64,000 nt of DNA from positions 32,314 through 96,313 of the IMG/VR virus record IMGVR_UViG_3300025902_000014. One strand, given 5' to 3'. The translations under genes were made by a program, and so were the position numbers. The DNA is from a virus (Duplodnaviria > Caudoviricetes). The notes below the pieces were generated by a model that saw nothing but the letters and a program-made list of their open reading frames with translations, was not told where the DNA came from and searched no databases. Each line of letters opens with the position of its first letter. Position 1 is the stretch's first letter. Positions 12,418 to 40,688 of this stretch are shown piece after piece.

Positions 12418-12603
12418 ATGCCGTACGAAGTCCTGACCGTGTACCTCGACCTGTTCACCCGCGAGGGCTGCCTCGAATTCAAGCGGCTCTGCGAGGTCGA
12501 GGGTTGGCGGCTCCTGTGGCAGGAGCAGGTTCTGAGGAACGACGGGAAGACGGACTTCTCGTCCCACCTCGTCCACTTCCACCGTGGCGGAGAAGTGAAA
12601 TGA
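12418..12603 (+). CDS. hypothetical protein
   Basis: AGGAGGAG SD. Confidence 0.55.
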   Translation: MPYEVLTVYLDLFTREGCLEFKRLCEVEGWRLLWQEQVLRNDGKTDFSSHLVHFHRGGEVK

Positions 12604-12845
12604 AGATCACGACGAAGCTCGTCGAGTCCATCGTGGAGTTCGACCTGCCCGCTTTGACCCCCAAGCAGGAGCTGGAGAACCGGGTCCGGGACATCTTCCA
12701 CATTCATCGCGGGGAGATGACGGATCAGGACGTCAAGTGGCAGCTCAAGACGAAGGCCATGCGCGACGTTCTCGCGGCGCTGGTCAAGGACAAGATCGTG
12801 CTCAAGCGCGGGGGCAAGTACGTGTGGCCCGACATGCGGCACTGA
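12600..12845 (+). CDS. leader-family protein, winged-helix-like body
   Basis: MKITTKLVESIVE. Confidence 0.65.
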   Translation: MKITTKLVESIVEFDLPALTPKQELENRVRDIFHIHRGEMTDQDVKWQLKTKAMRDVLAALVKDKIVLKRGGKYVWPDMRH

Positions 12846-12855
12846 CATTTCTAGC

Positions 12856-12883
12856 TTGACAGTTTGAGACTTTCTGATAGAGT
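12856..12883 (+). promoter_or_regulatory. sigma70-type promoter, leaderless
   Basis: TTGACA-16-TAGAGT, then 6 nt to ATG at 12890. Confidence 0.65.
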
Positions 12884-12889
12884 AGAGCC

Positions 12890-13198
12890 ATGAGAGTGAA
12901 GACGAACCTGACCGAGAAGTTCCTCCCCGATCGCGGGGATCTCCACCCCATCGTTCACTCGAACGGGTCGGGCAAGGCGAACCTTCTCGCGTGGGCTGAG
13001 CACTGCGAGAGTGCTCTGGCGGACGCTCTCACGGCCCTGCACTACGCCGGGGCTCCCCACCAGCGTGACTACTACATCGAAGGCCCCGAGGCATGGAACA
13101 AGGCCAAGAAGGGGTTCGAGGACCGGGTCAAGGCTGTCGCCGAGGTCCACGACTTCTACAGGGATCTGATCGACTACCTGCACACGGTGAAAGGTTGA
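12890..13198 (+). CDS. leader-family protein
   Basis: MRVKTNLTE. Confidence 0.7.
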   Translation: MRVKTNLTEKFLPDRGDLHPIVHSNGSGKANLLAWAEHCESALADALTALHYAGAPHQRDYYIEGPEAWNKAKKGFEDRVKAVAEVHDFYRDLIDYLHTVKG

Positions 13199-13200
13199 CC

Positions 13201-13515
13201 ATGAAAATCAGGACGAACCTGACCGAGGCCCTCGTTGAGGGGCGCGATCTTCCAATCCGATACACCGTCAACCTGACCGCTCCGGGGATGCACTACACCC
13301 CGATGCAGTGGCGGACTCGGCCGCAGGGACAGATCCCGTCCTACGGTGCGCCGACTAACGCCAACCTCGCAAAGTTCATGGCCAAGTTCCTCGAAACCAT
13401 GAAGCCGGGTGGTCACAGCGCTCATCTGGGGGATAAGGGTATTCCTACCCGTGCGACCATCATGGACCACGACACGGGGCAGGTCGTCGCTTCGTGGATA
13501 AATCCGGAGCACTAA
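13201..13515 (+). CDS. leader-family protein
   Basis: MKIRTNLTEALVE. Confidence 0.7.
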   Translation: MKIRTNLTEALVEGRDLPIRYTVNLTAPGMHYTPMQWRTRPQGQIPSYGAPTNANLAKFMAKFLETMKPGGHSAHLGDKGIPTRATIMDHDTGQVVASWINPEH

Positions 13516-13516
13516 G

Positions 13517-13783
13517 ATGAAGGTCAAGACACGTCTCACCGAGGCGCTCACCGAGAGCAACCCGAACGACATGTTCGCCGGGCTCAGCAAGCCCTTCAAG
13601 GGGCTCAAGGCCGGGGACACGGTGTACTTCAAGCAGTACGCCGGGATGGGCCGGGGTGGCCCCGAGTACAGGACCGCCAAGGGCAAGGTGCTGAAGTACC
13701 TCGTCTTCCCCGACCACGTCATGGTCTCGGGGGGCTGGGCGGGTCAGCTCGTCAACGACGAGAACTTCATCAAGAAGGGCTGA
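13517..13783 (+). CDS. leader-family protein
   Basis: MKVKTRLTEALTE. Confidence 0.7.
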   Translation: MKVKTRLTEALTESNPNDMFAGLSKPFKGLKAGDTVYFKQYAGMGRGGPEYRTAKGKVLKYLVFPDHVMVSGGWAGQLVNDENFIKKG

Positions 13784-13785
13784 AC

Positions 13786-14121
13786 ATGAAGGTCACCACC
13801 CAGCTCGCCGAATCTCTCACCGAGGCCGAGGGAAAAGAGGTCTTCCCGCACACCTTGGTCCAGCCGATCGCCCAGCGTCTGGCATCGGCCGCGCCCCTCC
13901 CCGGCCAGCGGAACACGGCCGTGATGCCGCTCGTGGGGATGCTCAAGCCCGGCGGACAGTGGTACCGGGACATCCCGTGGACCGTGATCGAGGGTGTGGC
14001 GAAGAAGCTGGCCATGAAGGAGTACGCCGGGCCGGGGCAGAGCGTGTCCCTCGCTTTGGCGCTGGCGCGGATCTCCATGATCTGGCAGGACGTCTACCAC
14101 AAGTGGCAGAGCGGGGCGTAG
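13786..14121 (+). CDS. leader-family protein
   Basis: MKVTTQLAESLTE. Confidence 0.7.
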   Translation: MKVTTQLAESLTEAEGKEVFPHTLVQPIAQRLASAAPLPGQRNTAVMPLVGMLKPGGQWYRDIPWTVIEGVAKKLAMKEYAGPGQSVSLALALARISMIWQDVYHKWQSGA

Positions 14122-14131
14122 GAGGCCGGTG

Positions 14132-14443
14132 ATGCGCGTCTCGACCCGCCTGACTGAAACCCTCGTCGAGGCCGCCCCGATCGGGGGGAGCTTCCCGTCC
14201 CGGGTGCTCCACGACACGGAGCCCCTCGGGGGCAAGTACGTGCTGTTGGTTCTCTGGGACAAGGGCGACAAGGGAGCCTACGTCTTCGGCGGGCCGGACA
14301 TGATGGCCCACGCCGGGGGCAACGCACGCGCCGGGAACGCCCGGTCGATCGCCTACACGAAGAAGCTCCCGAAGCAGACCGTCGGGGAGTTCAAGGCCAA
14401 GCTCGCCGGATCGAAGTACGCCGGAGCGGAGGTTCACGCATGA
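14132..14443 (+). CDS. leader-family protein
   Basis: MRVSTRLTETLVE. Confidence 0.7.
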   Translation: MRVSTRLTETLVEAAPIGGSFPSRVLHDTEPLGGKYVLLVLWDKGDKGAYVFGGPDMMAHAGGNARAGNARSIAYTKKLPKQTVGEFKAKLAGSKYAGAEVHA

Positions 14444-14670
14444 AGGTCACGACGAACCTGACCGAGGCCCTGACTGAAGCTCCCCGGAAGTGGAAGCGGG
14501 GGCAGTCCGAGGTCTTCAAGGACAAGGGCATCGTGGTCCAGTGGCTCCCCGCGAATCAGGCATGGTTCGTCGGGTTCGGCCGCGACCCCCAGACCGCCAG
14601 CCGCCTCCGGGTCATCAGCGACCCGGTCGAGCTGGACGACTACCTCCGGGTGGACCTGAAGCTCTACTGA
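14440..14670 (+). CDS. leader-family protein
   Basis: MKVTTNLTEALTE. Confidence 0.7.
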   Translation: MKVTTNLTEALTEAPRKWKRGQSEVFKDKGIVVQWLPANQAWFVGFGRDPQTASRLRVISDPVELDDYLRVDLKLY

Positions 14671-18503: not shown

Positions 18504-18980
18504 ATGCTGAACCGGGTGACCCAAGTCTTCTCCCCGTTCGGGTCGGGGGGCTTTCTCAGGCAGATGGCCGAGGCTGCGCTTCGGAACGTCAAGGAGTTTG
18601 AACTCAAGGTCGGCTCCTCTGAGAAGAGCCCCTACGACTTCCCGGTGGAGAAGCTCGGGGATCTCATGCTGGTCAGCATCGACGAGGAAGGTACGGTCCT
18701 CCGGGCACGGACCGTCAAGAACTCTCCCGGGAAGGATTACCAGTGGGCGGGTCCATGCACCCCCAAGGCGAATCTGTTCCGTGTCCTGAAGTTCGTCGGG
18801 GATGACCCTCTCGACCGTCAGAAGTTTCTTGACTACGTCTACAACTTCCGGAACGTCCTGATCGACCTCAAGAAGGAAACCATCGTCGTCATCGACGAGA
18901 ACACGGCGGAAGCGTTGACGGTCACCAGCGGGGTTCAGGCTCCTCGGGTGGCCGCCATCATGACCGCACTGGGACAGTGA
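18504..18980 (+). CDS. hypothetical protein (head module)
   Basis: ORF coupled to the protease gene. Confidence 0.65.
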   Translation: MLNRVTQVFSPFGSGGFLRQMAEAALRNVKEFELKVGSSEKSPYDFPVEKLGDLMLVSIDEEGTVLRARTVKNSPGKDYQWAGPCTPKANLFRVLKFVGDDPLDRQKFLDYVYNFRNVLIDLKKETIVVIDENTAEALTVTSGVQAPRVAAIMTALGQ

Positions 18981-20923
18981 TGAGACTTCTCGAAGCATCT
19001 TACTTTGAGGGTTACGAGATCCTCGAAGGCTCGGGCGAGGGGGCCAAGCCCCTGATCGTGCGGGGTGTGTTCGGGCGGGCGAATGTCAAGAACGAGAACG
19101 GACGGATCTACCCGGACAGCGTCTGGAGGAAGGTTCTCTCTGAGAGTTCCGAGGCCATGGGACGAATCAAGTCCCGGAACTTCTTCAGCGAACTCGACCA
19201 CCCGGACGATGGCCGGACTCTTCTTCAGCGTGTGGCCGGACTGACCACGCGACTGGAGATGCGTCCCGACTGGGCCGTGTACGGTGAGGCGGAGATCCTC
19301 CCGACCCCGGCGGGGAAGATCCTCGAAGCCCTTTTCCGCTCGAAGGCCAAGATCGGCATCTCTTCGCGTGGGGAAGGGGATCTCCTGAAGACCGAGTCTG
19401 GTGACATCGTTCAGGAGAACTTTGAACTTCAGGCATTCGACTTCGTCCACAACCCCTCGACTCAGGGGGCCTATCCCAACCCCGTCTTCGAGCATCTTCT
19501 GGCCCGAAGGACAGGAGATCGAATGATGGATCTGATGGAAGAGTTCAAGGCACTGGAGAGGTCCGTCCTCGAACTCGTGAACCTGAAGCCCTCGGAGGTG
19601 TCCGCCGCCATGCGGCCCCTCGTCGAGCGTCAGGCGACCGAGACGATGGTCAAGCTCTCCAAGCTGTCCGAGTCGGCGGGGGACATGAAGCCCCTGTTCA
19701 TCGGACTTCTCTCCGAACTGAACACCGCTCGTCGTCCTTTCGTCCGTCTGGGCGAGAACGACGGCGGCAACTACCACCCGGGGCTCGTGGACAAGCTCCT
19801 CGCGGCGACCAACACGGCCAAGGCCGGTGAGGCCGGAAGCGTCGAGGCCCTCCCCGCGACGGTGGAACCCGACTCTCTCCCCCTCATCCCCGGCGCGGAC
19901 CCGAAGGCCGTGGGTGAGTCCAAGACCGAAAAGACCCGCAAGGAGGAAGCCAAGATGGCCGAGGCCGCGAAGAAGAATTCCATGAGCAAGGCCCTCCGGT
20001 CGGCGATCCGTGAAGCCGAGGACGAGCTGGATCAGATCGCCACCGACGAGAGCGAGGACGAGACCGCCCTCGCGGCACAGGAGGCGGCGCAGAAGTGCGA
20101 GTCCCGGCTCCTCAAGGCCGCCCGGAAGGTCATGGAGGGGGACGGCGCGAACCTCATGCCCGACTCCTACGAGCCCGCCGAGCCCAAGGGCGAGGAAGAG
20201 ATCGGCGAGTCCGAGGACGGTGACGAGGACGACGTCCCGACCCTCACGGCGTCCGACGACGACGAGAACCAGTTCGGCGAGGACGAGAACGGCCCGCCGC
20301 CCGAGATTCAGGCCAAGATCGACGCCAAGGAGTCCAAGCGCAGGCGGCCCTCCGCCCTCCGCCGGTTCTCCGAGAGCGACGACGACAGCATCGACATCCC
20401 GGCCCCTCCCAAGGAGGAGGCCGAGACCGAGCCCACGGACGACGACGGTCAGCCCCTCCCCCCGATGGAGGCGAAGATCGTCAAGACCTACCGCAAGCTC
20501 GTCCGCGAGAACCGCCGGATGCGCTACGAGGCGAGGGTCACCGAGGCCATCGCGGCCAAGGCCATCGCCAAGCTCACCCGCAGGGTCCGCGCCACCGAGG
20601 CGGCCCGCCCGTCCGCCCCGGCCTTCATCGTGGCCGGTGGCCAGAAGATCCCGGTCAAGGTGGCCGGGTCGGTCATCGAGTCCCTCGTCCGCCGCTACAA
20701 GGAGCTGAAGAAGACCTCCGGCGGCAAGGTCACGGAGTCCGCCGGTTCGCCCGACCCGGGCAGCATCTCCGAGGGTCCGTTCGGCGTTCCGTCGTTCGCC
20801 AAGGTGGGCAACGTCGCCCGCCTGAACGAGGCCGCCACGGCCGGACGCAAGACCGAGAAGTCGATCCTCGAAAGTCAGGCTGAGCTGGGTGCCCGCGTGG
20901 CCGCCCGGATCGGTCGGGTCTAA
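18977..20923 (+). CDS. prohead protease (T4 gp21-like) fused to an acidic scaffold/core domain
   Basis: NENGRIYP, ELDHP, ILPTPAG, GISSRGEG, FDFVHNPS; long acidic/coiled C-terminus; directly upstream of the capsid gene. Confidence 0.9.
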   Translation: MMRLLEASYFEGYEILEGSGEGAKPLIVRGVFGRANVKNENGRIYPDSVWRKVLSESSEAMGRIKSRNFFSELDHPDDGRTLLQRVAGLTTRLEMRPDWAVYGEAEILPTPAGKILEALFRSKAKIGISSRGEGDLLKTESGDIVQENFELQAFDFVHNPSTQGAYPNPVFEHLLARRTGDRMMDLMEEFKALERSVLELVNLKPSEVSAAMRPLVERQATETMVKLSKLSESAGDMKPLFIGLLSELNTARRPFVRLGENDGGNYHPGLVDKLLAATNTAKAGEAGSVEALPATVEPDSLPLIPGADPKAVGESKTEKTRKEEAKMAEAAKKNSMSKALRSAIREAEDELDQIATDESEDETALAAQEAAQKCESRLLKAARKVMEGDGANLMPDSYEPAEPKGEEEIGESEDGDEDDVPTLTASDDDENQFGEDENGPPPEIQAKIDAKESKRRRPSALRRFSESDDDSIDIPAPPKEEAETEPTDDDGQPLPPMEAKIVKTYRKLVRENRRMRYEARVTEAIAAKAIAKLTRRVRATEAARPSAPAFIVAGGQKIPVKVAGSVIESLVRRYKELKKTSGGKVTESAGSPDPGSISEGPFGVPSFAKVGNVARLNEAATAGRKTEKSILESQAELGARVAARIGRV

Positions 20924-20955: not shown

Positions 20956-22380
20956 ATGGAACTCAACGAAGCAACGTTCAAGATGGGAACCTCGGAGCGG
21001 GTCAACAACGCTCTGGCCGCGTCCAAGTGGCGCAGGTTCCTCGAAGCCGCCAAGGTGCCCGAGGCCAAGCGGCCCTTCATCGCCCGGCTCTGCGAGAACC
21101 AGCTCACGTGGATGAGCCAGCTCGACGAGGAGACCCGTGTGGCCTCCATCGGGTCGTTCGAGAAGTTCGTCTTCCCGATGATCCGTGCGGTCTACCCGAA
21201 CCTCGTCGCGCAGGATCTCGTCTCGGTGCAGCCGATGGAGGCTCCGACCTCCCTCGTGTTCTACCGCGACACCCGGTTCGGCTCCAACAAGGGCGCGGTG
21301 AAGGCGGGTGATCCGCTCTTCAGTGCGCGCACCGGCTGGAACAACGCCTCCGGGTTCAACTACACCTCCGAGGTCGTCGAGAACGAAGAGATCGAGATGT
21401 CCACGGGCACGGGCGTGTCCTTCACGGGCAACCTCGCCTACCACCCCCTCCGTCCGGGCGGGCTGGTGATCTCCTACCTCAAGACCGCCGGGACCGCTGC
21501 GACCCTCACCGACGACGGCGCGGGCGGCCTCATCGGCGCGGCCGGTGAGCTGGCCGGGACGAACACGATCGACTACGGCACGGGTGCCTACGTCATCACC
21601 TTCGACACCGGGAAAGACCCGGCGGCCGGGGCCTTCACGGCCACGTACGACTACAACTCCGAGGGCTACGGGGACATCCCGCAGATCGACCTCATCCTCA
21701 CGAGCACGCCCGTCGTGGCTCGCCCGAGGAAGCTCCGCGCTCGGTGGAGCATCGAGGCGGCGGCCCAGCTCAAGGCGGTCCACGGTGACGAGGCCGAGGT
21801 CGAGCTGATGACCGACATGGCCAACGAGATGCGGATCGAGGTCGATCGCGAGATCATCTACGACCTCATCACCCTCGCCAACTCCAACAACACCTCTGGC
21901 ACGATCACCGAGACGACGTTCGCCAAGGCCGCGCCTTCGAACATCAGCCTCTACCTGCACCGCCAGAGCTTCATCTACTCGCTCATCGAAGCCTCGAACA
22001 AGATCTTTCAGGCGACCCGTCGCCACGGAGCCACGTGGCTCATCGGCGGCACGAACGTCTGCTCGATCATTCAGGGTCAGGAGGGCGAGCAGTTCGTCCC
22101 GGCCGGTGGCGACTATCAGGGTTCCGGCGTCCAGTTCATCGGCACCCTGAAGGGCCAGTGGAAGGTCTACCTCGACCCGTACATGAACGCGGACGAGGCC
22201 ATCCTCGGCTACAAGGGCGGGTCGTTCCTCGACAGCGGCTACGTCTACGCGCCGTGGGTTCCCTTCTACGCCACCCCGACCATCTACCTCGACGACTTCG
22301 TCGGCCGCAAGGGGCTCTTCACCAGCTACGCGAAGAAGCCGATCAACGGGCTCTTCTATGCAAAGTTGAGGCTCACCTAA
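20956..22380 (+). CDS. major capsid protein (T4 gp23-like)
   Basis: IRAVYPNLVAQDLVSVQPM, ARPRKLRARWSIEAAAQL, EVDREII, GYKG...YAPW. Confidence 0.95.
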   Translation: MELNEATFKMGTSERVNNALAASKWRRFLEAAKVPEAKRPFIARLCENQLTWMSQLDEETRVASIGSFEKFVFPMIRAVYPNLVAQDLVSVQPMEAPTSLVFYRDTRFGSNKGAVKAGDPLFSARTGWNNASGFNYTSEVVENEEIEMSTGTGVSFTGNLAYHPLRPGGLVISYLKTAGTAATLTDDGAGGLIGAAGELAGTNTIDYGTGAYVITFDTGKDPAAGAFTATYDYNSEGYGDIPQIDLILTSTPVVARPRKLRARWSIEAAAQLKAVHGDEAEVELMTDMANEMRIEVDREIIYDLITLANSNNTSGTITETTFAKAAPSNISLYLHRQSFIYSLIEASNKIFQATRRHGATWLIGGTNVCSIIQGQEGEQFVPAGGDYQGSGVQFIGTLKGQWKVYLDPYMNADEAILGYKGGSFLDSGYVYAPWVPFYATPTIYLDDFVGRKGLFTSYAKKPINGLFYAKLRLT

Positions 22381-25842: not shown

Positions 25843-25851
25843 GGAGTCTTC

Positions 25852-26604: not shown

Positions 26605-26609
26605 AGAAA

Positions 26610-26858: not shown

Positions 26859-26866
26859 GGATTGAG

Positions 26867-27316
26867 ATGGCGTACTGGGTTCTGAGATCAACGTCAACTT
26901 CCCAGATCGAGGAGGACGTGGACTCGATCGTGGAAGATCTCCTCGTCCCGGACATGCAGACCCTCGAAGCTCTCGAAGAGGGAATGCTTCAGCATGGCTG
27001 GGTGAAGTTCAAGGCCATCGTGAAGAAGCTGCTGCCGGACGTCTTCAGCAAGATCAGCAACGCCAAGCACCAGCGGTTCCTCGTCCAGATGGGGGAGCGG
27101 CCGGGAAGTCCCACCGTCGAGGTGGACCACTCTCTCGACGCAGCCCCTCGTGCGCCGGTTCAGCCCGGGGACAAGATCCAGATCCGTGGCCTGCTCGAAC
27201 CTCACGGCGGCGACGGGAACAAGCCCGTGGTCCACTTCACCCACAAGTCCCGGGATGGATCTGAGGCTGGCTTCATCTGGAAGGGTGAGACCCCTCCGGT
27301 GTGGACGGTGAAGTGA
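26867..27316 (+). CDS. DUF3465-like OB-fold protein
   Basis: KLLPD...HQRFLV...GDKIQIRG...VVHFTH. Confidence 0.6.
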   Translation: MAYWVLRSTSTSQIEEDVDSIVEDLLVPDMQTLEALEEGMLQHGWVKFKAIVKKLLPDVFSKISNAKHQRFLVQMGERPGSPTVEVDHSLDAAPRAPVQPGDKIQIRGLLEPHGGDGNKPVVHFTHKSRDGSEAGFIWKGETPPVWTVK

Positions 27317-28164
27317 GCACGAAAACCTTCCTCGTTCTCCGGTTGGGCCACAACGTCGCGGCCTCGCTGGACAACAAGAACGCGGCGAACATCGGGGGGA
27401 TGGCCTCGTTCATCCTCTCGGCGCTGGACAAGGACATCGCTTTCGGAGACAAGCTCTCCCTGTACGAGGTCACGGCCGAGCTGCCGTTCGCAGGCTACAT
27501 CCAGTACCGGGGGTCGTCCGTCCAGAACCGTTACCTCGATGGGGATGTCCGTGCCGAGCACGTGGGAGAGATGACGATCCACACAAACGCGAAGTGGTAC
27601 TCGTTCCCGGCGGGTGGGAAGTGGAAGGCCCACCTGAAGCGGACGGTGGACAACGCCATCCACGTGCTGGACGCCATGGTCCCGGAGAGGTTCCCCCGGG
27701 AGAAGCGCATCGCCATGTGCGGCGAAGTCCAGATTCAGCAGCTCTTGAAGCACGTTTTCCACGAGATGCACGAGGAGAAGAATATGAAGACCACCACGAA
27801 GATCGTTGAGGCTCTGCTCGGAGAGGGATTCGGGGGCTCGGGCAAGACCGTCAAGCTCTCTCCCGGTGATCGGTCGCAGATCAACAGGGGTATCTACTCG
27901 GCGACGTTGAACAAGTATTTCAACAGTCTTGCGGCGGCCATCGAGGTAATCAACCATGCCATGAAGCCGGTGGGTTACTTCATCATGGCATCGTCCGACT
28001 ACATGGGCAGGGATGACGGGCACAAGAACCTCCCGATCCACAAGGAGCACCCGGAGGGTACGGACCCGTTCATGGGCCACGATGAGGTCTCGAACTGCTG
28101 GCTCTCGTTCTCATGGCACAAGATGGGGTCCGGGAAGTACGAGATCACGGCGTACGTGAGCTGA
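27313..28164 (+). CDS. two-domain protein with an internal leader-family start at 27784
   Basis: GAGGAG SD plus ATG 27784, giving MKTTTKIVEALLGE in frame. Confidence 0.6.
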   Translation: MSTKTFLVLRLGHNVAASLDNKNAANIGGMASFILSALDKDIAFGDKLSLYEVTAELPFAGYIQYRGSSVQNRYLDGDVRAEHVGEMTIHTNAKWYSFPAGGKWKAHLKRTVDNAIHVLDAMVPERFPREKRIAMCGEVQIQQLLKHVFHEMHEEKNMKTTTKIVEALLGEGFGGSGKTVKLSPGDRSQINRGIYSATLNKYFNSLAAAIEVINHAMKPVGYFIMASSDYMGRDDGHKNLPIHKEHPEGTDPFMGHDEVSNCWLSFSWHKMGSGKYEITAYVS

Positions 28165-29363: not shown

Positions 29364-29372
29364 GATGGGGCC

Positions 29373-29972: not shown

Positions 29973-29994
29973 ACTATCTGAACGAGAGGACATC

Positions 29995-30366: not shown

Positions 30367-30367
30367 C

Positions 30368-30667: not shown

Positions 30668-31014
30668 GGATCGCCGAACAGCTCGCCCAGAGCCTGACCG
30701 AGCAGACCGTCACCGAGATGGACGACTCCGCCCTCCTCGTGGTGGACCGCATCCTGTCCGACATCGACCGGTACATCGCGGCCCACCTCGAACACGAGTT
30801 GGGGATGCTGAAGGACGGGTTGAAGAGCGCGGAGAAGCAGATCGCCGGGCTCAAGAATGCGGGGGCCGGGAAGACGGAGCACGACTCCATCCTCCTCAAG
30901 GTTGTCATGCCCGCGTGGCACCGCTTCGAGTCGCAGGTCACGGACATGGGCACCCGGTTCAAGAAGCTCGAAGCTGCCGCCAAGGCGGGAGGAAGGGAAT
31001 GGGACGCACCGTGA
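30664..31014 (+). CDS. leader-family protein
   Basis: MRIAEQLAQSLTE. Confidence 0.7.
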   Translation: MRIAEQLAQSLTEQTVTEMDDSALLVVDRILSDIDRYIAAHLEHELGMLKDGLKSAEKQIAGLKNAGAGKTEHDSILLKVVMPAWHRFESQVTDMGTRFKKLEAAAKAGGREWDAP

Positions 31015-31280
31015 GAATCGCCGAACAGCTCGCTGAGGCCCTGACCGAAGCCGTCGCACCTCTGAAAGACCGGAGCGAAGAGGCCGCCCACGAAGCCAAC
31101 ACCGTCATCCACTCTCTTCGGGACGCCATCGGCCAGATCGAGCACGAGATCAAGTGGCTGGAACATGACATCGAGGAGCGCACCATTCACGGGGCGCAGA
31201 TCCTTCCCGGTCTCAAGACCGCCCGGACTCAGCTTGGGGTGGCTTTGACCACACTTCGGACCACGGCCCACAAGGTGTAA
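31011..31280 (+). CDS. leader-family protein
   Basis: MRIAEQLAEALTE. Confidence 0.7.
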   Translation: MRIAEQLAEALTEAVAPLKDRSEEAAHEANTVIHSLRDAIGQIEHEIKWLEHDIEERTIHGAQILPGLKTARTQLGVALTTLRTTAHKV

Positions 31281-33043: not shown

Positions 33044-33241
33044 GTGGCTGACCCCAACCAGAAACAGGTCACGGTTTCGATCTCGAAGCTCACCGGGTAT
33101 CTGGATGGGGTCATCTCGAACGCGCAGAAAGCGAAAGATGATCTTGAGACCGCCCGGAAAGCGAAAGCCTCGGGCGGTTCCAAGGACTCCCTCTTCATGA
33201 GGCTGGCGAAGTCGGCACTATCGGGTGGAAAGAAGTCGTGA
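33044..33241 (+). CDS. hypothetical protein
   Basis: Coupled ORF. Confidence 0.55.
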   Translation: MADPNQKQVTVSISKLTGYLDGVISNAQKAKDDLETARKAKASGGSKDSLFMRLAKSALSGGKKS

Positions 33242-33921
33242 TTGCAGCCAACCTGATCCGGACCGAAGTGGACACCCGAACCCCGAATGCTCGGGCACGG
33301 GCACGATATTGTCTTCGTCATCCGGATAGGGTCAAGAAACAGGGCCAGATTCGGCAGGCCCGTTTGACACCGGAAGAGCGAGCCGCTCGGGCAGCCTATG
33401 CCCGGGAGTGGCGGAAAGCCAATCCGGGGTACTGTGCTGCTCAGACCCAGAAGTGGAAGGCCGCGCACCCGAAACGGTTTCGAGAGCTGTGCGATCGGTG
33501 GCGGAAGACCCCCAAGGGGGTTGAGGTTCGACGCGCGTGGGATCGTGGGGAAGTGGCCAAGGCTGGGAAGGCCGTCTGGCAGGCCAAGAACCCGGAGAGG
33601 GTGAAGGCCATCGAGTACCGTCGGAACCACACCCGGCGGGCGAGGCTGTACGCGGTGCCTCGGGCGCCCTATGACTTCGTCGAAATCCTCCGGTTGAGTG
33701 GGAACCGGTGCGCCTACCAGCTCACCGGGTGTCTGTGGTTGATGGACCCGGAAGTCCAGCTCACGGCTGACCACATCATCCCGATTTCGAAAGGTGGAAG
33801 TGACACGTTCGAGAACGTGCTTCCGGCTTGTGGCCGCTGCAACAAAAAGAAGGGTTCTAGGCTCGTCGAGCCTAAGTTCCGTGTCAGTGCATCTGACAGT
33901 AAAGACGCTGCAAATCACTGA
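33238..33921 (+). mobile_element. HNH homing endonuclease
   Basis: DHIIPISKGGSDTFENVLPACGRCNKKKG. Confidence 0.85.
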
Positions 33922-33936: not shown

Positions 33937-36456
33937 ATGGCAGTCTACGTGTCGCCCGGCGTATACACGACCATTCTGGACCTCAGCCTCTACATCCCGA
34001 ACCTCAGCACCACGATCGCGGGTGCCGTCGGGATGGCGAGCAAGGGTCCGCTGAACGAGCCCACCTACGTGTCGAACGTCCTCTCGTTCGTCACGAACTT
34101 CGGGCAGCCGAACCCGAACTACATGGGTCCGTACGCGGCCCTCCAGTTCCTTCGGTACGGTCGCCAGTTCTACTACGTGCGCGTGGCCGGGCCTTCGGCC
34201 GCTGCCGCCTCCGTGAACATGCTGGAGGCCACCACGGCAGCCAGCATCACGGCCGGGGTCGCGGGACCGTACATGGTCCTCGGGACGGACAACAACGTCC
34301 TCCGCCTCAAGGTGAACGACGATGCCGACTTCCTCGTCATCACCCTGACCAAGGGTGTCCGGACGACGGCGGCTGTCGCCTCCGAGATCGCCGGGGCCAT
34401 CGCGGGCGGCGGCGGGAACGTGGACGTCGCCGTGACGGCTCTGCCGAACGGGACGTTCAGCATCACCTCGACGACCCTCGGCGCCCCGTCGCACATCATC
34501 ATCGACTCCGTCGCCAACGGTTCCACGGCCAACTCGGTCTTCGGGTTCGCGTCCGGCGGCGTGACTTCGGACGGGGTGGCGGCCACTTCCGGCGTCATCA
34601 CCGGGGACAACGTCACCGGTCCGTACACGATCATCCTCGGGGACAACGACTCCCTGACCTTCTCGATCGACGGCGCGGCTCCGATCACGGCGACCCTCCC
34701 TGTCGGCTCGCAGACCCATACCGACATCGCGGCTGCCATCCAGTCCGAGATCGACATCAACGCCACCGGGCTCGCCACGGCGGTAGGTGTCACCGACGGC
34801 GGGAACGATGTCGTTCGGATCACCTCCACGGCCACGGGGGCGACCAGCTCGATCATCGTGACGGCCGGTTCGGCAGCCACGACTCTCGGGCTCGATGCCC
34901 TCCTGCACCGGGGTGCGGCGGCCACGGCGGCCTCGGCCACGGCTTCCATCGCGGGTCCGTTCACCTTCGGGTCGAACAACACCCTCCACCTCAAGTTCAA
35001 CGGTGGCGCGGTCCGCAGCATCGGGCTCCCCTCGGGGCTCAGCTCCGCCACGGCCATCGCGACCATCATCAACGCGGTCGTCGGTACCGACGGGTACAAC
35101 GAGGGTGTGGCCTCCGTCACGGCGGATGGCAAGGTAAAGATCTCCTCGCTCACGGTCGGAACGACGGCGTCCGTCCAGTGCGACCCGGGGGGCTCGGGCC
35201 AGTACGCCCTCAACCTCTCCACGGCGGCGGTGAATGGGACCGGCACGGCGGCCACGACTTCCCTCACGGTGTCGGCCCGCACCAAGGGCACCCACGGCAA
35301 CGCCCTCTCGGTCGTCGCCTCGGCCGGGCAGAACCCGGGAACCTTCAAGCTCACCGTCTACGACGGCGAGGCTGCCGTCGATGCGTGGGACAACCTGAAC
35401 AAAGACCCCCTCAGCGTGAACTTCGTCGAGACCAAGATCAACGACGCCTCGACGTGGATCACGGTCGCCGATGACGCGGGAACCGTGAACTTCCCGGCCT
35501 TCGGTGTGGTCAACGTGATGGCCGGTGGCAACGACGGCATCACCGACATCACGGACGCCGACTACATCGGGGTCGTGACCCCCGGCGGGAAGACGGGCCT
35601 CCAGCTCTTCGCCAACGCCGAGGATCTCGACCTGAACATCCTCATGGTCCCGGGCATCTCGTCCGCTGCGGTCATCAACGAGGAGCTGCTCCTCTGCTCC
35701 GTGCGCGGCGACTGCATGGCGATCATCGACCCGCCGTTCGGCCTCTCGGTCCAGCAGGTCACCGACTGGCACAACGGGTACGGGGCCTACTCGGACCATC
35801 AGGCGTTCAACAGCCTCTACGGTGCCCTCTACTGGCCGTGGCTGGAGATCTACGACGCCACCAACAAGCAGAAGGTCTGGGTTCCGCCCAGCGGCCTCGT
35901 GGCGGGCGTCTACGCCTACACCGACTACACCACCGAGACGTGGTTCGCTCCGGCTGGTCTGAACCGGGGCCACCTCATCCAGCCCCTCCGGGTCGAGCAC
36001 TCGGCCGACCTCGGTGAGCGGGATCTCCTCTACGGCAACCAGAACGCCGTCAACCCGATCGTGAACTTCCGCAAGGACGGCATCACGATCTGGGGCCAGC
36101 GGTCCCTCCAGCGCAAGCCCTCGGCCCTCGACCGGGTCAACGTCGTCCGCCTCGTTCTGTACCTCCGGAAGGTCATCGCGACGGCGGTCAAGTACCTCAC
36201 CTTCGAGCCGAACGACCCGATCACGTGGGCCACGTTCGTCAACCTCGTCGAGCCGTACATGGAGTCGGTCAAGCAGCGGCGCGGAGTCATCGACTACAAG
36301 GTCATCTGCGACTCCTCGACCAACCCGCCCGACGCCATGGACCGCAACGAGATGCACGGTGTCGTCGCCCTCAAGCCCACGAAGTCGGCCGAGTTCATCG
36401 AGGTGAAGTTCGCGGTCGTCAATCAGGGTGCCAACTTCGAGGAACTCACCTACTGA
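33937..36456 (+). CDS. contractile tail sheath protein with inserted domains
   Basis: YVSPGVY, KGPLNEP, YWPW...VPPSG, WFAPAGLNRG, IWGQRSL, FEPND. Confidence 0.95.
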   Translation: MAVYVSPGVYTTILDLSLYIPNLSTTIAGAVGMASKGPLNEPTYVSNVLSFVTNFGQPNPNYMGPYAALQFLRYGRQFYYVRVAGPSAAAASVNMLEATTAASITAGVAGPYMVLGTDNNVLRLKVNDDADFLVITLTKGVRTTAAVASEIAGAIAGGGGNVDVAVTALPNGTFSITSTTLGAPSHIIIDSVANGSTANSVFGFASGGVTSDGVAATSGVITGDNVTGPYTIILGDNDSLTFSIDGAAPITATLPVGSQTHTDIAAAIQSEIDINATGLATAVGVTDGGNDVVRITSTATGATSSIIVTAGSAATTLGLDALLHRGAAATAASATASIAGPFTFGSNNTLHLKFNGGAVRSIGLPSGLSSATAIATIINAVVGTDGYNEGVASVTADGKVKISSLTVGTTASVQCDPGGSGQYALNLSTAAVNGTGTAATTSLTVSARTKGTHGNALSVVASAGQNPGTFKLTVYDGEAAVDAWDNLNKDPLSVNFVETKINDASTWITVADDAGTVNFPAFGVVNVMAGGNDGITDITDADYIGVVTPGGKTGLQLFANAEDLDLNILMVPGISSAAVINEELLLCSVRGDCMAIIDPPFGLSVQQVTDWHNGYGAYSDHQAFNSLYGALYWPWLEIYDATNKQKVWVPPSGLVAGVYAYTDYTTETWFAPAGLNRGHLIQPLRVEHSADLGERDLLYGNQNAVNPIVNFRKDGITIWGQRSLQRKPSALDRVNVVRLVLYLRKVIATAVKYLTFEPNDPITWATFVNLVEPYMESVKQRRGVIDYKVICDSSTNPPDAMDRNEMHGVVALKPTKSAEFIEVKFAVVNQGANFEELTY

Positions 36457-36503: not shown

Positions 36504-36518
36504 CAGGATGAAGGGCAG

Positions 36519-37011
36519 GATGATGGCTGAACCGAAGAAGCTCCGAATCGTAGACCGACCGGTCAAGAACTTGCGGGTCACCCGCAAGACGCTGGAGCAG
36601 CAGGCGTGGTACTCCGTTCAGCCCAACCTTCGGCACGTCGAGAAGGACGATCACGGGAACATACGCTTCTACGTGAAGCACAGCCCCTCAGCAAACCGCT
36701 ACGCCGACATGACCGAGCTGCACACCATGTCGAATGCCGAACTTCTGAAGCTGAGGAAGTGGCCAGCGGATACCGTCGTCTCGGAAGGAATCACCATGGC
36801 CCATGCCGACCAGATCGTGGAATCTCTCCTGAGCGGATCGTTCGTCGTGGGGAACCAGACGTTCGAGACCCTCGGGTCAGCCCAGAAGGCCGCCGAACAG
36901 CTCGCCCGGAACTCCAACGGCAAGACCATCTTCGTGAAGACGGACGCTGGGAAGATCGTCAAGGAGATCTCGGCAGGCCCGAACGGACTTCTCAACGTCA
37001 GGAGCAGGTAA
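36519..37011 (+). CDS. hypothetical protein with an internal leader start at 36796
   Basis: AAGGA SD plus MAHADQIVESLL in frame. Confidence 0.55.
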
Positions 37012-37967
37012 TGAAGCATCAGGTGGTCCGCATCAAAAGCCATGGCCAGACCCTTGAACTGAAGAAATTTCCTCTGGACACTCCGGACCATGTGATGGAC
37101 CAGTACATCGACGCCGCGTATGCCAAGTACGACAAACTTGGTAAGGACGTGATGGCCTACACGAAAGTGGAGTCGAAAATGGGGCCGGGGGAGGTTACGC
37201 GAATCACCGAGGCCCTTCTCGACGAGAGCAACGGGCACCACGCGCACATGGGTGGGAAGCTCTATGCCGACTCCGGGTTCCTCCAGAGCGTGAGCAGCCT
37301 CGGGCACGGGTACGAGGTCAACCACATGGGGTTCGGGGAGTTCTCCGTCAAGACGCCTCTCGGTGAAGTTGAATTCAACCGAATGGCCGGGAAGGATTTT
37401 CCGGGGCAGTCGGGGCGCAGTCACAACATCTACGACACCAAGGGTGGAACCAAGGCGGCCGAGGCCCTGATTCACGCCATGCAGCAGAAGTCACTGTCTA
37501 CGGAAGTTCATGGAGAGGCCAAGGTCACGTCTTCGGGACGAATCACTGAAGCTCTTCTTGCAGAGCGGTCTCTGTCTTCGTTACCGTCGAAGGTGACCCC
37601 GGCCTCTAACACTGGAGGGGCGGGGTGCTCTAGTTGTGGTAAGAGATTCAGTGCGGGAGAGCGGTACTATTTCCATGACAAGGAACCCGTCTGTCAGAAG
37701 TGCGCGCTTCGTCGGCTGGCCACGGAAACGGAATCGGTTTCCGAAGCAGTTCTGACGGAATACGGGGACAGCAGCAACTTCTCGAACTACGTTCCTCTCA
37801 CGGCGAAGCGGGCTGGTCCGGCGGACTGCAAGCCCGGACACACGGTCAAGGTCGGTGACAAGGTCGGCTGGAACCCTCGCACCAAGAAGGTCTACTGCGC
37901 CGATTGCTGGCACAAGTGGTCCATGGAGAACATGCACGCCCGGAACTCCGAGATGGGGTGGTACTGA
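37011..37967 (+). CDS. multi-domain putative polyprotein
   Basis: Internal RITEALLDE, RITEALLAE and VSEAVLTE separate small domains. Confidence 0.65.
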   Translation: MKHQVVRIKSHGQTLELKKFPLDTPDHVMDQYIDAAYAKYDKLGKDVMAYTKVESKMGPGEVTRITEALLDESNGHHAHMGGKLYADSGFLQSVSSLGHGYEVNHMGFGEFSVKTPLGEVEFNRMAGKDFPGQSGRSHNIYDTKGGTKAAEALIHAMQQKSLSTEVHGEAKVTSSGRITEALLAERSLSSLPSKVTPASNTGGAGCSSCGKRFSAGERYYFHDKEPVCQKCALRRLATETESVSEAVLTEYGDSSNFSNYVPLTAKRAGPADCKPGHTVKVGDKVGWNPRTKKVYCADCWHKWSMENMHARNSEMGWY

Positions 37968-38839
37968 TGACTCGCGACGAGCTGGAAAAGAAGGCGTGGG
38001 AGAAGATCCCTGCTCGGTTTCGGACGACGGTCAACGGCCAGCAAGCGGTGCTGCCTCCGAAACCGGGCATGGGGCCGGGGCCAGTGATCTTCTCGTCTTT
38101 TCCCGACAAGCTCCTGCTCAAGTGGGCCGGGCTCCCGGCGACCGTCCCGGTCACGGAGGGCACGGCGGCCCGGCACGCCAAGCGCATCGTCGAGGCCCTC
38201 CTGACCGAGCGGCACTTCGTCGCCACTGTCACCGGGAAGGGCGGCTACTACAAGTGGCACGCGGTCCGGGACGACGGCATGGGGTTCGGAAGCTCCTTCA
38301 CCTACACGACTGCCGGAGAGGCCGAGCGTTCGGCGCAGAAAAACCTCGGGAAGATGGGGTCCGTGGTCGTCAAGCACGTTCAGGAGTCCAAGGATCTCGT
38401 GCATCACACGGGTCCGCTTCCTCCCGGGGGACTGGTCTCGGGGAAGTGTAAGAACTGCAAGACCCCGTTCACCGTCTCCGGGAAAGCGATCCAGCACGAC
38501 GGGTCCATCATCTGCCCGAAGTGCAAGAAGAACGCGGATGTCGTCGAGTCCGTCACGGAGTCTCTTCTTGAGGAGGAGCCGTTCCAGCTCAAGATCAAGT
38601 GCGAGTCGTTCGGAAAGACCCTGTCTGGAAAGTACGGCAATCAGGGCTCGTATACCGGTTCGTTCACCGCTGCCCAGTTCATCCAGAGGCTCAAGAACTC
38701 TTTCCCCATCGACCGTGAGGGGCAGCCGGTTCATTACCAGTTCACGTCCCTCGACGGGCATCAGGGGATCGTGGACCATCTTGTTGCTGAGCACCTCCCG
38801 AAGACTGGGAAGCAGCCCGGCGGATCGGCCTACAGGTAG
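37967..38839 (+). CDS. multi-domain putative polyprotein
   Basis: Internal RIVEALLTE and VTESLLEE. Confidence 0.65.
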   Translation: MTRDELEKKAWEKIPARFRTTVNGQQAVLPPKPGMGPGPVIFSSFPDKLLLKWAGLPATVPVTEGTAARHAKRIVEALLTERHFVATVTGKGGYYKWHAVRDDGMGFGSSFTYTTAGEAERSAQKNLGKMGSVVVKHVQESKDLVHHTGPLPPGGLVSGKCKNCKTPFTVSGKAIQHDGSIICPKCKKNADVVESVTESLLEEEPFQLKIKCESFGKTLSGKYGNQGSYTGSFTAAQFIQRLKNSFPIDREGQPVHYQFTSLDGHQGIVDHLVAEHLPKTGKQPGGSAYR

Positions 38840-38843
38840 TTTG

Positions 38844-39230
38844 ATGCGACTCTCCGAGCAGATCGCCGAAGCTCTCCTCTCCGAGAAGACGTGGGCTGTG
38901 CCGTCCTACGAGCTGGCCCAGATCCAGAAGGCCGACGCCACCACTCTCCGGTCCCTCCGGAAGATCGCTACCGACAAGCTGGAACGGCTGGAACGGGGAA
39001 CCACGGTGGGCTGGGGGTCATCGAACTACGAGATCGACCACGGGCAGACGACGGCGAAGCTCAAGGCCATCGACGATCGGCTCAAGCAGCTCGGGGAGTC
39101 CCGGCTCAGCGAGGCCAAGCCCCCCTACTTCCAGTGTCAGGAGTGCGGGAAGACCCTTCCCGAGACGGCCCGGAAGTGCTCGAAGTGCGGCTCCTCGGAC
39201 ATCGACCTCTACGTCCCCCCGAAGAAATAA
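38844..39230 (+). CDS. leader-family protein with a C-terminal Zn ribbon
   Basis: MRLSEQIAEALLSE; CQEC...CSKC. Confidence 0.7.
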   Translation: MRLSEQIAEALLSEKTWAVPSYELAQIQKADATTLRSLRKIATDKLERLERGTTVGWGSSNYEIDHGQTTAKLKAIDDRLKQLGESRLSEAKPPYFQCQECGKTLPETARKCSKCGSSDIDLYVPPKK

Positions 39231-39632: not shown

Positions 39633-39998
39633 ATGAGAGTCACCACCAAACTCATCGAGGCCATTCTCCGCGAGGGAGTCTTCGATGTCCACACGGCTGA
39701 GCAGTGGATCACCCACATCAAGAGCGGGGTTCATGCCCCGGTCGTGCGGGCGGACAAAAGCACTCTCGGCGGCGCGGACAGGGTGTCGATCATGATGACC
39801 ATCAGCCTCGATCCGAAAGAATCGTGGCACAACGGTATCCTCCAGAATTCCCGGTACATGAACATGCACCTCGGCAACGATGGGACGCTGGAGCAGATCT
39901 CGGGGAGCAAACTCCGGTTCCGGAAGACCCGTGTCACCAGTTCCGACGATGTCGTGGCCAAGCTCAACAAGTTCATCGCCTCCGTCCCGGTGGCGTAG
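39633..39998 (+). CDS. leader-family protein
   Basis: MRVTTKLIEAILRE. Confidence 0.7.
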   Translation: MRVTTKLIEAILREGVFDVHTAEQWITHIKSGVHAPVVRADKSTLGGADRVSIMMTISLDPKESWHNGILQNSRYMNMHLGNDGTLEQISGSKLRFRKTRVTSSDDVVAKLNKFIASVPVA

Positions 39999-40059: not shown

Positions 40060-40416
40060 ATGACGATGCGAATCTGGAAACAGCTTCAGGAGGCCATGGC
40101 GGCCGACGAGTTCCCGCAGGTGGCTTCGGCGGCTCCCAACCCGGAGCAGGAGGCCGAGGCTCCCCCCGAGGAGCAGGAGGCCCAGCCCCTCCTCCCGGGC
40201 CTCCACGAGACCGGGAACCAGCTCAAGACCCTGAACACCTCCCGGGCGGTCCTCGTGGCCGTCGTGAATGACCTCGCCACGGTCATCGAAGCCTTCAGGA
40301 AGGCCGAGGGGATGTCCACCAAGCCCGAGGTCACCTCCCAGCTCTCCGGGGTCCACATGGCCGCCCTGAAGCTCGCCACCGAGGTCCACAAGCTCAAGGT
40401 GGAGCTGGGGTCGTGA
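40060..40416 (+). CDS. hypothetical protein with a leader variant
   Basis: MRIWKQLQEAM; ACTATC upstream. Confidence 0.6.
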   Translation: MTMRIWKQLQEAMAADEFPQVASAAPNPEQEAEAPPEEQEAQPLLPGLHETGNQLKTLNTSRAVLVAVVNDLATVIEAFRKAEGMSTKPEVTSQLSGVHMAALKLATEVHKLKVELGS

Positions 40417-40688
40417 GGCTCTCCGAGGCCCTCGTGGAGGCTCTCCTTCGGGAAGACGGCCACGTGTCCACCGGCCCGGCCCGCAAGGAGCTGGAGCGGA
40501 AGGCGTGGGCGGCCCAGCACCGGGACTACAAAGGCAAGGGTGCGGACGGGGTCCGTCGGATGCTCCACCGCAACCCCAAGACGGGGGGCACGGAGAGCTG
40601 GCCCATCGAGCAGATTCCGGATGCGGATCTGGAGTCGCTGGCTCGGATGTATGACAGGAAGAAGGCAGCGGGTCAAGTTTCTTCTTGA
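40413..40688 (+). CDS. leader-family protein
   Basis: MRLSEALVEALLRE. Confidence 0.7.
   Translation: MRLSEALVEALLREDGHVSTGPARKELERKAWAAQHRDYKGKGADGVRRMLHRNPKTGGTESWPIEQIPDADLESLARMYDRKKAAGQVSS

What the first reader, a model, noticed from the sequence alone, without database searches (positions are those of the whole stretch)
36519..39230. Putative phage polyproteins: the leader motif recurs as an internal linker
Seen: ORF 37011-37967 contains RITEALLDE, RITEALLAE and VSEAVLTE. ORF 37967-38839 contains RIVEALLTE and VTESLLEE. ORF 38844 has LGESRLSE before a Zn ribbon. Each motif separates compact domains of roughly 40-100 aa, several of them CxxC fingers. The first domain of 37967 (RDELEKKAW) resembles the free-standing leader protein at 40413 (RKELERKAW). 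Inference: these are fused cargo cassettes that the prohead protease cuts into separate proteins.
Basis: partly seen in the sequence, partly recalled or inferred. Interest (0 to 1): 0.8.

Follow-up and report, generated by a model that had tools for sequence, protein, structure and literature searches.

The report
Fused phage head-cargo cassettes with leader linkers
A high-GC relative of phage T4 puts one short leader peptide, ending in the cutting site of its head protease, on about 18 small unrelated proteins. In four neighbouring genes several such units are fused, with the leader kept as the joint, so they are probably loaded into the capsid and cut apart there, though no cut has been measured.

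Summary
A scoring matrix trained only on N-terminal leaders finds 5 internal copies at 15 bits or more (0.07 expected) and 8 at 12 bits or more (0.52 expected). Seven of these eight lie in ORFs 36508-39230 and ORF 27301-28164.

The phage has a T4 gp21-type (S77) prohead protease with an intact catalytic triad and a gp23-type capsid protein. T4 gp21 cuts after L/I-x-Glu, and every motif except the window's own ORF A copy (…LLSG, Glu in two sister strains) ends that way.

Relatives show that the units are exchangeable cassettes:
- A sister strain starts ORF B directly with the leader MKLSEQITEALLDE and lacks module B1.
- That strain also carries the D2 zinc ribbon as a free 50-aa leader gene.
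- More distant relatives carry B2, B4 and C2a as stand-alone leader genes.

AlphaFold places each motif of B and C on a short helix or low-confidence stretch between folded modules. In 33 of 83 diverged homologues of module B2, a hydrophobic-x-Glu site ends within one residue of the module's start (7% expected).

Fusion of cassettes is shown. Cutting, packaging and injection are inferred. The scan has reported similar cargo polyproteins in other T4-like phages. I found no paper describing them.

The parts
36508..37011 (+). ORF A (167 aa): module A1, then the internal leader copy MAHADQIVESLLSG (aa 97-110, DNA 36796-36837), then module A2. The last motif residue is Gly here and Glu in strains L002 and L003.
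   Evidence: A1 is paralogous to C1 (27% over 86 aa, E 1e-3).
37011..37967 (+). ORF B (318 aa): modules B1 (aa 1-62), B2 (73-185), B3 LIM-like zinc finger (186-250) and B4 CxxC module (251-318). Motifs lie at DNA 37200-37226, 37539-37565 and 37734-37760.
37967..38839 (+). ORF C (290 aa): modules C1 (1-81), C2 (82-203, a DUF2188-like fold plus a zinc ribbon) and C3 (204-290). Motifs lie at DNA 38183-38209 and 38549-38575.
38844..39230 (+). ORF D (128 aa): N-terminal leader (38844-38885), module D1, the motif QLGESRLSE (39087-39113), then the D2 zinc ribbon.
27301..28164 (+). A second fused gene outside the finding. A 160-aa N-terminal part runs in frame into GAGGAG-N6-ATG and a full leader, MKTTTKIVEALLGE, at 27784-27825, followed by a 113-aa body.
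   Evidence: (23.6 bits)
18977..20923 (+). Prohead protease: an S77, T4 gp21-type domain (aa 16-170) with a long C-terminal extension.
   Evidence: Pfam PF03420, E 5.5e-13, 49.3 bits against a cut-off of 27. phrog_207 E 2e-41. PDB 5JBL (T4 gp21) E 4.7e-8, with ELDHP, ISSRG and FDFV aligned to the catalytic positions.
20956..22380 (+). Major capsid protein, T4 gp23 family.
   Evidence: Pfam PF07068, E 3.3e-58. phrog_138 E 1.9e-60.
40413..40688 (+). Free-standing leader protein (91 aa) whose body contains RKELERKAW. Relative to strain L003 it joins the leader of one gene to the body of the next.
39633..39998 (+). Free-standing leader protein (121 aa), conserved in L001, L002 and L003.
12600..14670 (+). 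Tandem array of seven small genes that each start with the leader. They belong to the same cargo set.

Best explanation
**What it is.** ORFs A, B, C and D, and ORF 27301-28164, are in-frame fusions of small head-cargo cassettes. In this phage and its relatives a cassette is a 13-14-residue leader (M-K/R-x-x-T/E-x-L/I-x-E-A/S-L-L/T-x-E) followed by an unrelated 40-120-aa body.

**How the fusions arise.** The leader-coding DNA serves as a recombination anchor. Cassettes are gained, lost and sometimes joined in frame, which leaves the C-terminal half of the leader (R-I-T/V-E-A-L-L-x-E) as the joint.

**Inferred mechanism, by analogy with the T4 capsid targeting sequence.** The amphipathic leader helix takes the protein into the scaffolding core of the prohead. 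The gp21-type protease then cuts after the Glu of L-x-E. A fused gene therefore yields the same small mature proteins as separate genes would. These proteins stay in the head with the DNA and are probably ejected into the host.

**Shown.** The motif excess, the fusion and split polymorphism, the module boundaries, the protease family and its intact triad.

**Inferred.** Targeting, cutting, packaging and ejection. The functions of the modules are unknown.
For: 1. **Leader family.** About 17 ORFs in the window start with the leader, all on the + strand in coding frames, and there is nothing comparable in the other frames.
2. **Internal copies exceed chance**.
3. **Protease and capsid.** The protease is S77 with His/Ser/Asp in place, and the capsid protein is gp23-type. 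T4 gp21 cuts after L/I-X-E, and the first 10 residues of IPIII suffice for head targeting (PMC9026906).
4. **Split forms in relatives.**
   - L002, about 98% identical, starts ORF B as MKLSEQITEALLDE|SNGHH. Module B1 is a 185-bp indel lying inside the leader codons.
   - L002:8121-8273 is a 50-aa gene made of a leader plus the D2 zinc ribbon.
   - L001:6518-6844 (P0154) is MNTTQIVESLLTE plus C2a at 78% identity.
   - P0016 is MKVTSKLTEAVLVE plus B4, and P0004 is MKKSERIVEALLR plus B2.
   - In L001, eight separate genes lie downstream of the sheath gene. Seven start with the LL/L-x-E leader and the eighth with the related MRIYKQLAEALEG.
5. **Module B2 boundary.** B2 has 280 homologues. In 54 of 148 the domain starts at residue 3 or earlier. 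In 83 homologues with upstream sequence, [LIVMF]-x-E ends within one residue of the boundary in 33, against about 7% expected.
6. **Structure models.** In B the motifs are short helices at 59-73, 175-189 and 245-251. They sit next to low-confidence stretches, between modules with pLDDT of about 75-98. In C the motifs fall in stretches with pLDDT below 50, at 66-81 and 192-203.
7. **No internal start at five joints.** B185, B250, C81, C203 and D90 have no start codon at the leader position, so only proteolysis could free the modules downstream of them.
Against: - No proteomic or biochemical data exist for this phage.
- ORFs A, B and C have no N-terminal leader, so targeting would have to work from an internal copy. 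To my knowledge this has not been shown for T4.
- After a single cut the leader-like helix would stay on the C-terminus of the upstream module.
- Positions expected to be critical vary between strains. P1 is Gly in the window's ORF A but Glu in L002 and L003. P3 at C203 is Leu in the window and Phe in L002.
- Three joints (SVSEAVLTE, SVTESLLEE, QLGESRLSE) are degenerate, at 9-12.6 bits.
- The D90 motif is not leader-derived.
- L-x-E alone is frequent by chance (2.45% of positions in the homologue set).
Confidence: 0.62

Rival explanations
1. The fusions are real but are not cut at the joints. The internal motifs are fossils of leader-mediated recombination. The products act, or are packaged, as multi-domain proteins, with the motif serving as a helical linker or targeting helix at most.
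For: Internal copies have lost the N-terminal half of the leader (2.6-7.9 bits for the five detected with the full-leader model). P1 or P3 changes are tolerated between strains. Some joints are degenerate.
Against: The three strongest internal copies (RITEALLDE, RITEALLAE, RIVEALLTE) score 19-21 bits. They are invariant across three strains except at the free x position, while flanking residues vary. The hydrophobic-x-Glu site is kept at the B2 boundary in diverged homologues whose leaders are otherwise unrelated.
Confidence: 0.22
2. Separate products arise mainly by internal translation initiation (nested genes), not by proteolysis.
For: In-frame ATG codons with Shine-Dalgarno-like sequences sit at the leader distance at 27784 (GAGGAG-N6-ATG), at A aa 97 (GGAAGGA-N5-ATG) and at B aa 57 (GTGGAG-N7-ATG).
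Against: B185 (GTC), B250, C81, C203 and D90 have no start codon at that place. This could explain three of the eight joints (two of the seven in ORFs A-D, plus 27784) at most, and it would add to proteolysis, not replace it.
Confidence: 0.08
3. The leader has nothing to do with the head. It could be a tag for another assembly or export route, or a shared translational or mRNA element. These genes lie after the sheath gene, so they could be tail-associated.
For: The genes lie between tail sheath and later tail genes. No module has a known head function.
Against: The leader ends in the cutting rule of the phage's own S77 protease. Leader genes also flank the head genes (12600-14670, 24618-31280). 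The motif is conserved at protein level while codons differ.
Confidence: 0.06
4. The long ORFs are artefacts of assembly or sequencing, such as lost stop codons or frameshifts.
For: None found.
Against: Identical or 97-98% identical fused ORFs occur on independent contigs from different samples. Substitutions are mostly synonymous. GC3 is uniform in one frame.
Confidence: 0.02

Closest known systems
Phage T4 internal proteins IPI, IPII, IPIII and Alt: capsid targeting sequence (CTS) plus gp21 processing (PMC9026906, PMC3012670)
   Same: The protease (S77) and capsid protein (gp23) families are the same. A short N-terminal leader is shared by unrelated small proteins and ends in L/I-x-Glu. The cargo set is hypervariable between related phages.
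   Different: T4 has a handful of such proteins, each a separate gene with the leader at the N-terminus. Here there are about 18 leader genes plus fused genes of 2-4 modules in which the leader recurs internally. I did not test the leader sequence for homology to the T4 CTS. No experiment exists for this phage.
Inner-body and ejection proteins of giant phages (phiKZ, 201phi2-1, SPN3US), cut several times by a gp21-related protease (PMC9026906, PMC10052503)
   Same: Several protease sites ending in Glu occur within one head protein. The proteins are packaged with the DNA and ejected.
   Different: In those phages the multiple cuts degrade long N-terminal propeptides of one mature protein. Here the sites lie between independent folded modules that exist as separate genes in relatives. 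The protease here passes the S77 Pfam threshold. S80 falls just below its cut-off (23.3 against 23.4 bits).
Polyvalent proteins of phages and conjugative elements (Iyer et al. 2017, PMC5512222)
   Same: Several unrelated modules sit in one polypeptide, probably delivered with the DNA, with release of the modules by proteolysis proposed.
   Different: Polyvalent proteins are large (up to 15 domains), carry recognisable enzyme and LPD domains, and are proposed to be processed by an embedded zincin-like peptidase. Here the modules are tiny, none matches Pfam LPD or MPTase families, and the proposed protease acts in trans at leader-derived sites.
Cargo polyproteins with head-protease linkers reported by this scan in other uncultured T4-like phages (e1-5841484, e1-5669591, e1-5689061 and others; AI notes)
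   Same: The architecture and the proposed mechanism are the same. Module B2 of ORF B has homologues inside proteins of about 1000 aa that are preceded by similar linkers.
   Different: This case is a high-GC lineage. The linker is demonstrably the N-terminal leader itself, and near-identical strains show the fused and the split states side by side.

Membership tests
T4-type CTS cargo processed by a gp21-family protease | The phage encodes a gp21-family (Peptidase S77) prohead protease with its catalytic His, Ser and Asp | tested here: met
   PF03420 E 5.5e-13, above the cut-off. Alignment to PDB 5JBL shows ELDHP, ISSRG and FDFV at the catalytic positions.
T4-type CTS cargo processed by a gp21-family protease | gp23-family major capsid protein | tested here: met
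   PF07068 E 3.3e-58
T4-type CTS cargo processed by a gp21-family protease | A short N-terminal leader shared by otherwise unrelated small proteins | tested here: met
   About 17 ORF starts, at 9-23 bits with a leader HMM. The bodies are unrelated.
T4-type CTS cargo processed by a gp21-family protease | The leader ends in L/I-x-Glu, the gp21 cutting rule | tested here: met
   Read directly from the sequence. The rule is taken from PMC9026906. Exception: the window's ORF A ends in Gly.
T4-type CTS cargo processed by a gp21-family protease | Cleavage after the Glu by the prohead protease | not testable with these tools
   Needs proteomics or an in vitro assay.
T4-type CTS cargo processed by a gp21-family protease | Presence of the mature proteins in the head and their ejection into the host | not testable with these tools
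   Needs virion proteomics and infection assays.
Polyvalent proteins (Iyer et al. 2017) | Two or more unrelated domains in one phage polypeptide | tested here: met
   2-4 modules per ORF
Polyvalent proteins (Iyer et al. 2017) | Hallmark domains (MPTase zincin peptidase, ArdC, LPD families and others) | tested here: not met
   No such Pfam hit at E below 0.1 in A-D. None in 8 long B2 homologues.
phiKZ-type inner-body proteins | PF12699 (phiKZ_IP) domain and an S80 protease | tested here: not met
   PF12699 appears only at E 0.062, in ORF 40060. S80 scores 23.3 bits, just below its cut-off of 23.4, and S77 is the better match.

The most novel reading that the evidence does not exclude
One short coding element does three jobs: head-targeting tag, protease cutting site and recombination anchor. 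Cargo cassettes can then be inserted, deleted, swapped or fused in frame without changing the set of mature packaged proteins. This would be a plug-and-play cargo system that tolerates polyprotein forms and may be widespread in T4-type phages. Module B2 shows the same boundary site in diverged homologues, including proteins of about 1000 aa.
Probability: 0.45. Interest if true: 0.7.

Novelty: new variant of a known kind. Interest (0 to 1): 0.6.

Why it matters
Proteins packaged in phage heads and injected with the DNA include anti-defence factors such as T4 IPI*, but they are known in few phages. A sequence rule that marks such cargo would allow a phage's injected protein set to be read from its genome: a leader or linker that ends in the protease site. 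It would also explain how this set turns over so fast. The fused and split variants in near-identical strains offer a direct test of whether an internal targeting and cleavage signal works. That result would bear on using T4-type heads as protein delivery vehicles.

Tried and rejected
- **ORF C homologues.** Searches at near and shorter lengths found only itself and P0154. ORF B at shorter lengths found only P0004.
- **Family libraries.** Pfam and PHROGs gave no family for A-D beyond weak zinc-finger hits, a weak DUF2188 hit and two weak matches to PHROGs of unknown function.
- **Module B2 in GenBank phages.** No match.
- **Fold searches.** The ORF B model gave nothing at E 0.001 or better against PDB and BFVD. 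There is only a local LIM-like match for B3.
- **Context of long homologues and split forms.** The 1067-aa B2 homologue P0013 lies on a 4.6-kb contig, which is uninformative. No DNA could be fetched for the two SRR13608723 contigs that carry stand-alone B2 and B4.
- **Literature.** Repoila et al. 1994 is not held. Paper searches found no description of cargo polyproteins with CTS-type linkers.
- **Homology of C1/A1 to the body of gene 40413** stays uncertain.
- **ORF 11495-12409.** Its apparent internal motif was rejected as internal. The true start is probably the Met at aa 69, which makes it an N-terminal leader.
- **ORF 5750-7150.** The 12.1-bit hit at aa 452-460 is treated as chance.
- **Not run.** No complex prediction was run, because enzyme-substrate pairs are a poor use of that tool.
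Full report
**1. Setting.** The window is bases 32314-96313 of a 96-kb phage contig. It is 63% G+C, and nearly all genes lie on the + strand. The head module is T4-like:
- ORF 18977-20923 begins with a Peptidase_S77 (T4 gp21) domain. Pfam gives E 5.5e-13 and 49.3 bits against a cut-off of 27. PHROGs gives head maturation protease at E 2e-41.
- This domain aligns to the T4 gp21 structure 5JBL (E 4.7e-8). ELDHP, ISSRG and FDFV sit at the catalytic His, Ser and Asp positions.
- ORF 20956-22380 is a gp23-family capsid protein (E 3.3e-58).
- ORF 33937-36456 is the tail sheath.
- The nearest cultured phages share only about 36% identity in the capsid protein.

**2. The leader family.** About 17 ORFs begin with M-K/R-x-x-T/E-x-L/I-x-E-A/S-L-L/T-x-E. 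Their window starts are 12600, 12890, 13201, 13517, 13786, 14132, 14440, 24618, 24946, 26610, 27784, 29998, 30664, 31011, 38844, 39633 and 40413. ORF 11495 has a longer variant. A model of the leader finds these on the + strand in coding frames and nothing comparable in other frames. Every leader ends in L-x-E. This is the rule of T4 gp21, which cuts after L/I-X-Glu. In T4 the first ten residues of IPIII are enough to take a protein into the head (PMC9026906; PMC3012670).

**3. Check of the observation.**
- I built a matrix from 14 N-terminal leaders only and scanned all called proteins, leaving out their first 16 residues.
- At 15 bits or more there are 5 internal hits, against 0.07 expected. 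At 12 bits or more there are 8, against 0.52.
- The hits, in order of score: KIVEALLGE (ORF 27301), RIVEALLTE (C), RITEALLAE and RITEALLDE (B), QIVESLLSG (A), QLGESRLSE (D), SVTESLLEE (C), and one probable chance hit in ORF 5750.
- SVSEAVLTE (B) scores 9.0 bits. What rescues it is homology, described in section 4.
- The ORFs are genuine. They recur at 97-100% identity on independent contigs. Differences are mainly synonymous (63 against 30 codons). Every segment keeps GC3 bias in the same frame.

**4. What relatives show.** This is the decisive evidence.
- **L002**, a strain about 98% identical, has ORF B as a 260-aa protein that starts MKLSEQITEALLDE|SNGHH. At DNA level the window has 185 bp where L002 has 11 bp. 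The difference lies inside the leader codons, after ATGAAGC and before ATCACCGAGGCC. The first internal motif of B is therefore a true N-terminal leader in a sister strain.
- **The D2 zinc ribbon** is a separate 50-aa gene with its own leader in L002 (MKVTTKLVEALVKKE…). There, ORF D continues after AKPP into a different zinc finger. The D motif LGESRLSE is present in both forms, so it is not leader-derived, although it sits within four residues of the junction.
- **L001**, a more distant relative, has eight separate genes downstream of an 839-aa sheath gene. Seven start with the LL/L-x-E leader and the eighth with the related MRIYKQLAEALEG. One of them, P0154, is MNTTQIVESLLTE|RHFVATV…. It is 78% identical to C aa 82-141 and ends in a D2-like ribbon.
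- **A further sample** carries B2 (P0004, MKKSERIVEALLR…) and B4 (P0016, MKVTSKLTEAVLVE|YGS…) as stand-alone genes. The B4 gene lies in the same position relative to the DUF7717 gene.
- **Window gene 40413** equals the leader of one L003 gene joined to the body of the next. The two alignments overlap by 11 bp within the leader. This is the signature of recombination between leader-coding repeats.
- **L001 has its own fused gene**, with GLVEALLRE in the middle.

**5. Module boundaries.**
- A full HMMER search with ORF B against 1.8 billion representatives gave 280 hits. Almost all are to aa 73-185 (module B2), a domain absent from Pfam, PHROGs and GenBank phages.
- In 54 of 148 aligned homologues the domain starts at residue 3 or earlier of the protein. 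In 23 it follows a short N-terminal peptide, and several of those end in L-x-E with otherwise different sequence, for example MKKSELKEIIREEIQKLKE|. In 71 it lies deeper in larger proteins.
- Over 83 homologues with upstream sequence, [LIVMF]-x-E ends within one residue of the position equivalent to Glu72 in 33 cases. The background is 2.45% per position, or about 7% for three positions.
- The AlphaFold model of B (80-row alignment, mean pLDDT 75.8) places the motifs on short helices at 59-73, 175-189 and 245-251. Low-confidence stretches at 44-57, 173-178 and 252-270 lie next to these helices. The modules between them are B1, B2 (pLDDT 89-98), the B3 zinc finger and B4.
- The model of C is shallow (6 rows, pLDDT 60). 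Even so, both motifs fall in stretches with pLDDT below 50 (66-81 and 192-203) between folded parts.

**6. Paralogy.**
- A1 and C1 are paralogous (27% over 86 aa, E 1e-3). Each is followed by the motif and a small DUF2188-like module.
- B3 and the zinc ribbon of C2 are related together with their trailing motif (33% over 45 aa, E 8e-4).
- The suggested link of C1 to the body of gene 40413 rests on 7 of 9 identical residues and an hhalign probability of 54%. It stays open.

**7. Mechanism.**
- *Shown:* the four ORFs are in-frame fusions of cassettes that elsewhere are separate leader genes. The joints are leader-derived for B72, B250 and C81, and by likeness for B185 and A110. They lie between modules and end in the rule of the phage's own protease family.
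- *Inferred:* the leader helix targets the protein to the prohead core, the protease cuts after the Glu, and the small mature modules remain in the head and enter the host with the DNA, as in T4.
- *Why fusion would be tolerated:* if the cut separates the modules, fusion is neutral. This would explain why fused and split states coexist among close strains.
- *Internal starts:* three joints keep an in-frame ATG with a ribosome-binding sequence at the leader distance (27784, A aa 97, B aa 57), so short products may also come from internal initiation. Five joints have no start codon, and there only proteolysis could free the downstream modules.

**8. Evidence against, and limits.**
- Nothing has been measured.
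- A, B and C lack an N-terminal leader, so an internal copy would have to act as the targeting signal.
- A single cut leaves the helix on the upstream module. V-S/T-E-G sites 17 residues upstream in A and C might remove it, but that is speculation.
- P1 is Gly in the window's ORF A, and P3 is Phe in L002 at C203. Not every joint is under strict constraint.
- The functions of the modules are unknown, and fold searches gave nothing.

**9. Comparison with what is known.** The closest system is the T4 CTS and internal-protein system. It shares the protease and capsid families, the leader logic and the variability between relatives (PMC9026906). The differences are the number of leader genes, the fused multi-module genes and the internal position of the leader.
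- Giant-phage inner-body proteins are cut many times, but within propeptides of single proteins (PMC10052503).
- Polyvalent proteins (PMC5512222) are a functional analogy. They have different domains and an embedded peptidase, and their hallmark domains were not found here.
- My paper searches found no description of CTS-type linkers in cargo polyproteins.
- This scan has reported similar polyproteins in other uncultured T4-like phages. I did not check those notes, and they are not independent evidence. One note may concern P0019, a 991-aa homologue of module B2.

**10. Verdict.** The fused-cassette reading is well supported. Cleavage by the prohead protease is likely but untested. This is a new variant of the T4 internal-protein system. 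Its particular value is the natural fused and split polymorphism.

Noticed in passing
window 11495-12409: The true start is probably the Met at aa 69. That gives a 21-residue leader (MKFTEAEQFRIQCIVESLFVE|GVFD) in front of a P-loop kinase/ATPase-like body (phrog_12810 E 4e-42, polynucleotide-kinase-like hits from aa 87). This is a candidate enzyme cargo.
   Followed up: partly
window 27301-28164: A coding ORF runs in frame into GAGGAG-N6-ATG and a complete leader at 27784. It is a fifth fused gene, and it may give both a long and a short product.
   Followed up: partly
window 40413-40688 vs L003:5667-6247: The window gene equals the leader of one L003 gene plus the body of the next. The DNA alignments overlap by 11 bp within the leader, which indicates a deletion by recombination between leader-coding repeats. 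The window also lacks the 87-aa leader gene found at L002:9083-9346 and L003:5046-5309.
   Followed up: partly
window 36835-36837; L002:6783-7655: The last motif residue of ORF A is Gly in the window but Glu in L002 and L003. The C203 motif reads SLFEE in L002 and SLLEE in the window.
   Followed up: yes
L001:8624-9127: A 167-aa gene of the more distant relative also has an internal leader copy (GLVEALLRE|FNQD). Fusion therefore recurs independently.
   Followed up: no
window 37227-37565 (module B2): This is a widespread unnamed domain, with conserved HMGFGEF and GRSH motifs and 280 hits in 1.8 billion representatives. It is absent from Pfam, PHROGs and GenBank phages. It often sits at protein N-termini or inside proteins of about 1000 aa. 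Its function is unknown.
   Followed up: partly
window 37566-37760 (module B3): GC3 is only 0.60, against 0.74-0.92 in neighbouring modules. This may mark a recently acquired cassette.
   Followed up: no
window 17536-18207, 22414-23641, 33238-33921: Homing-endonuclease-like ORFs sit between structural genes: GIY-YIG with NUMOD3, NUMOD3-like repeats, and HNH.
   Followed up: no
window 18977-20923: The protease domain (about aa 16-170) is followed by a 450-residue acidic, helix-rich extension with many hydrophobic-x-Glu sites. It is probably a fused scaffold.
   Followed up: no
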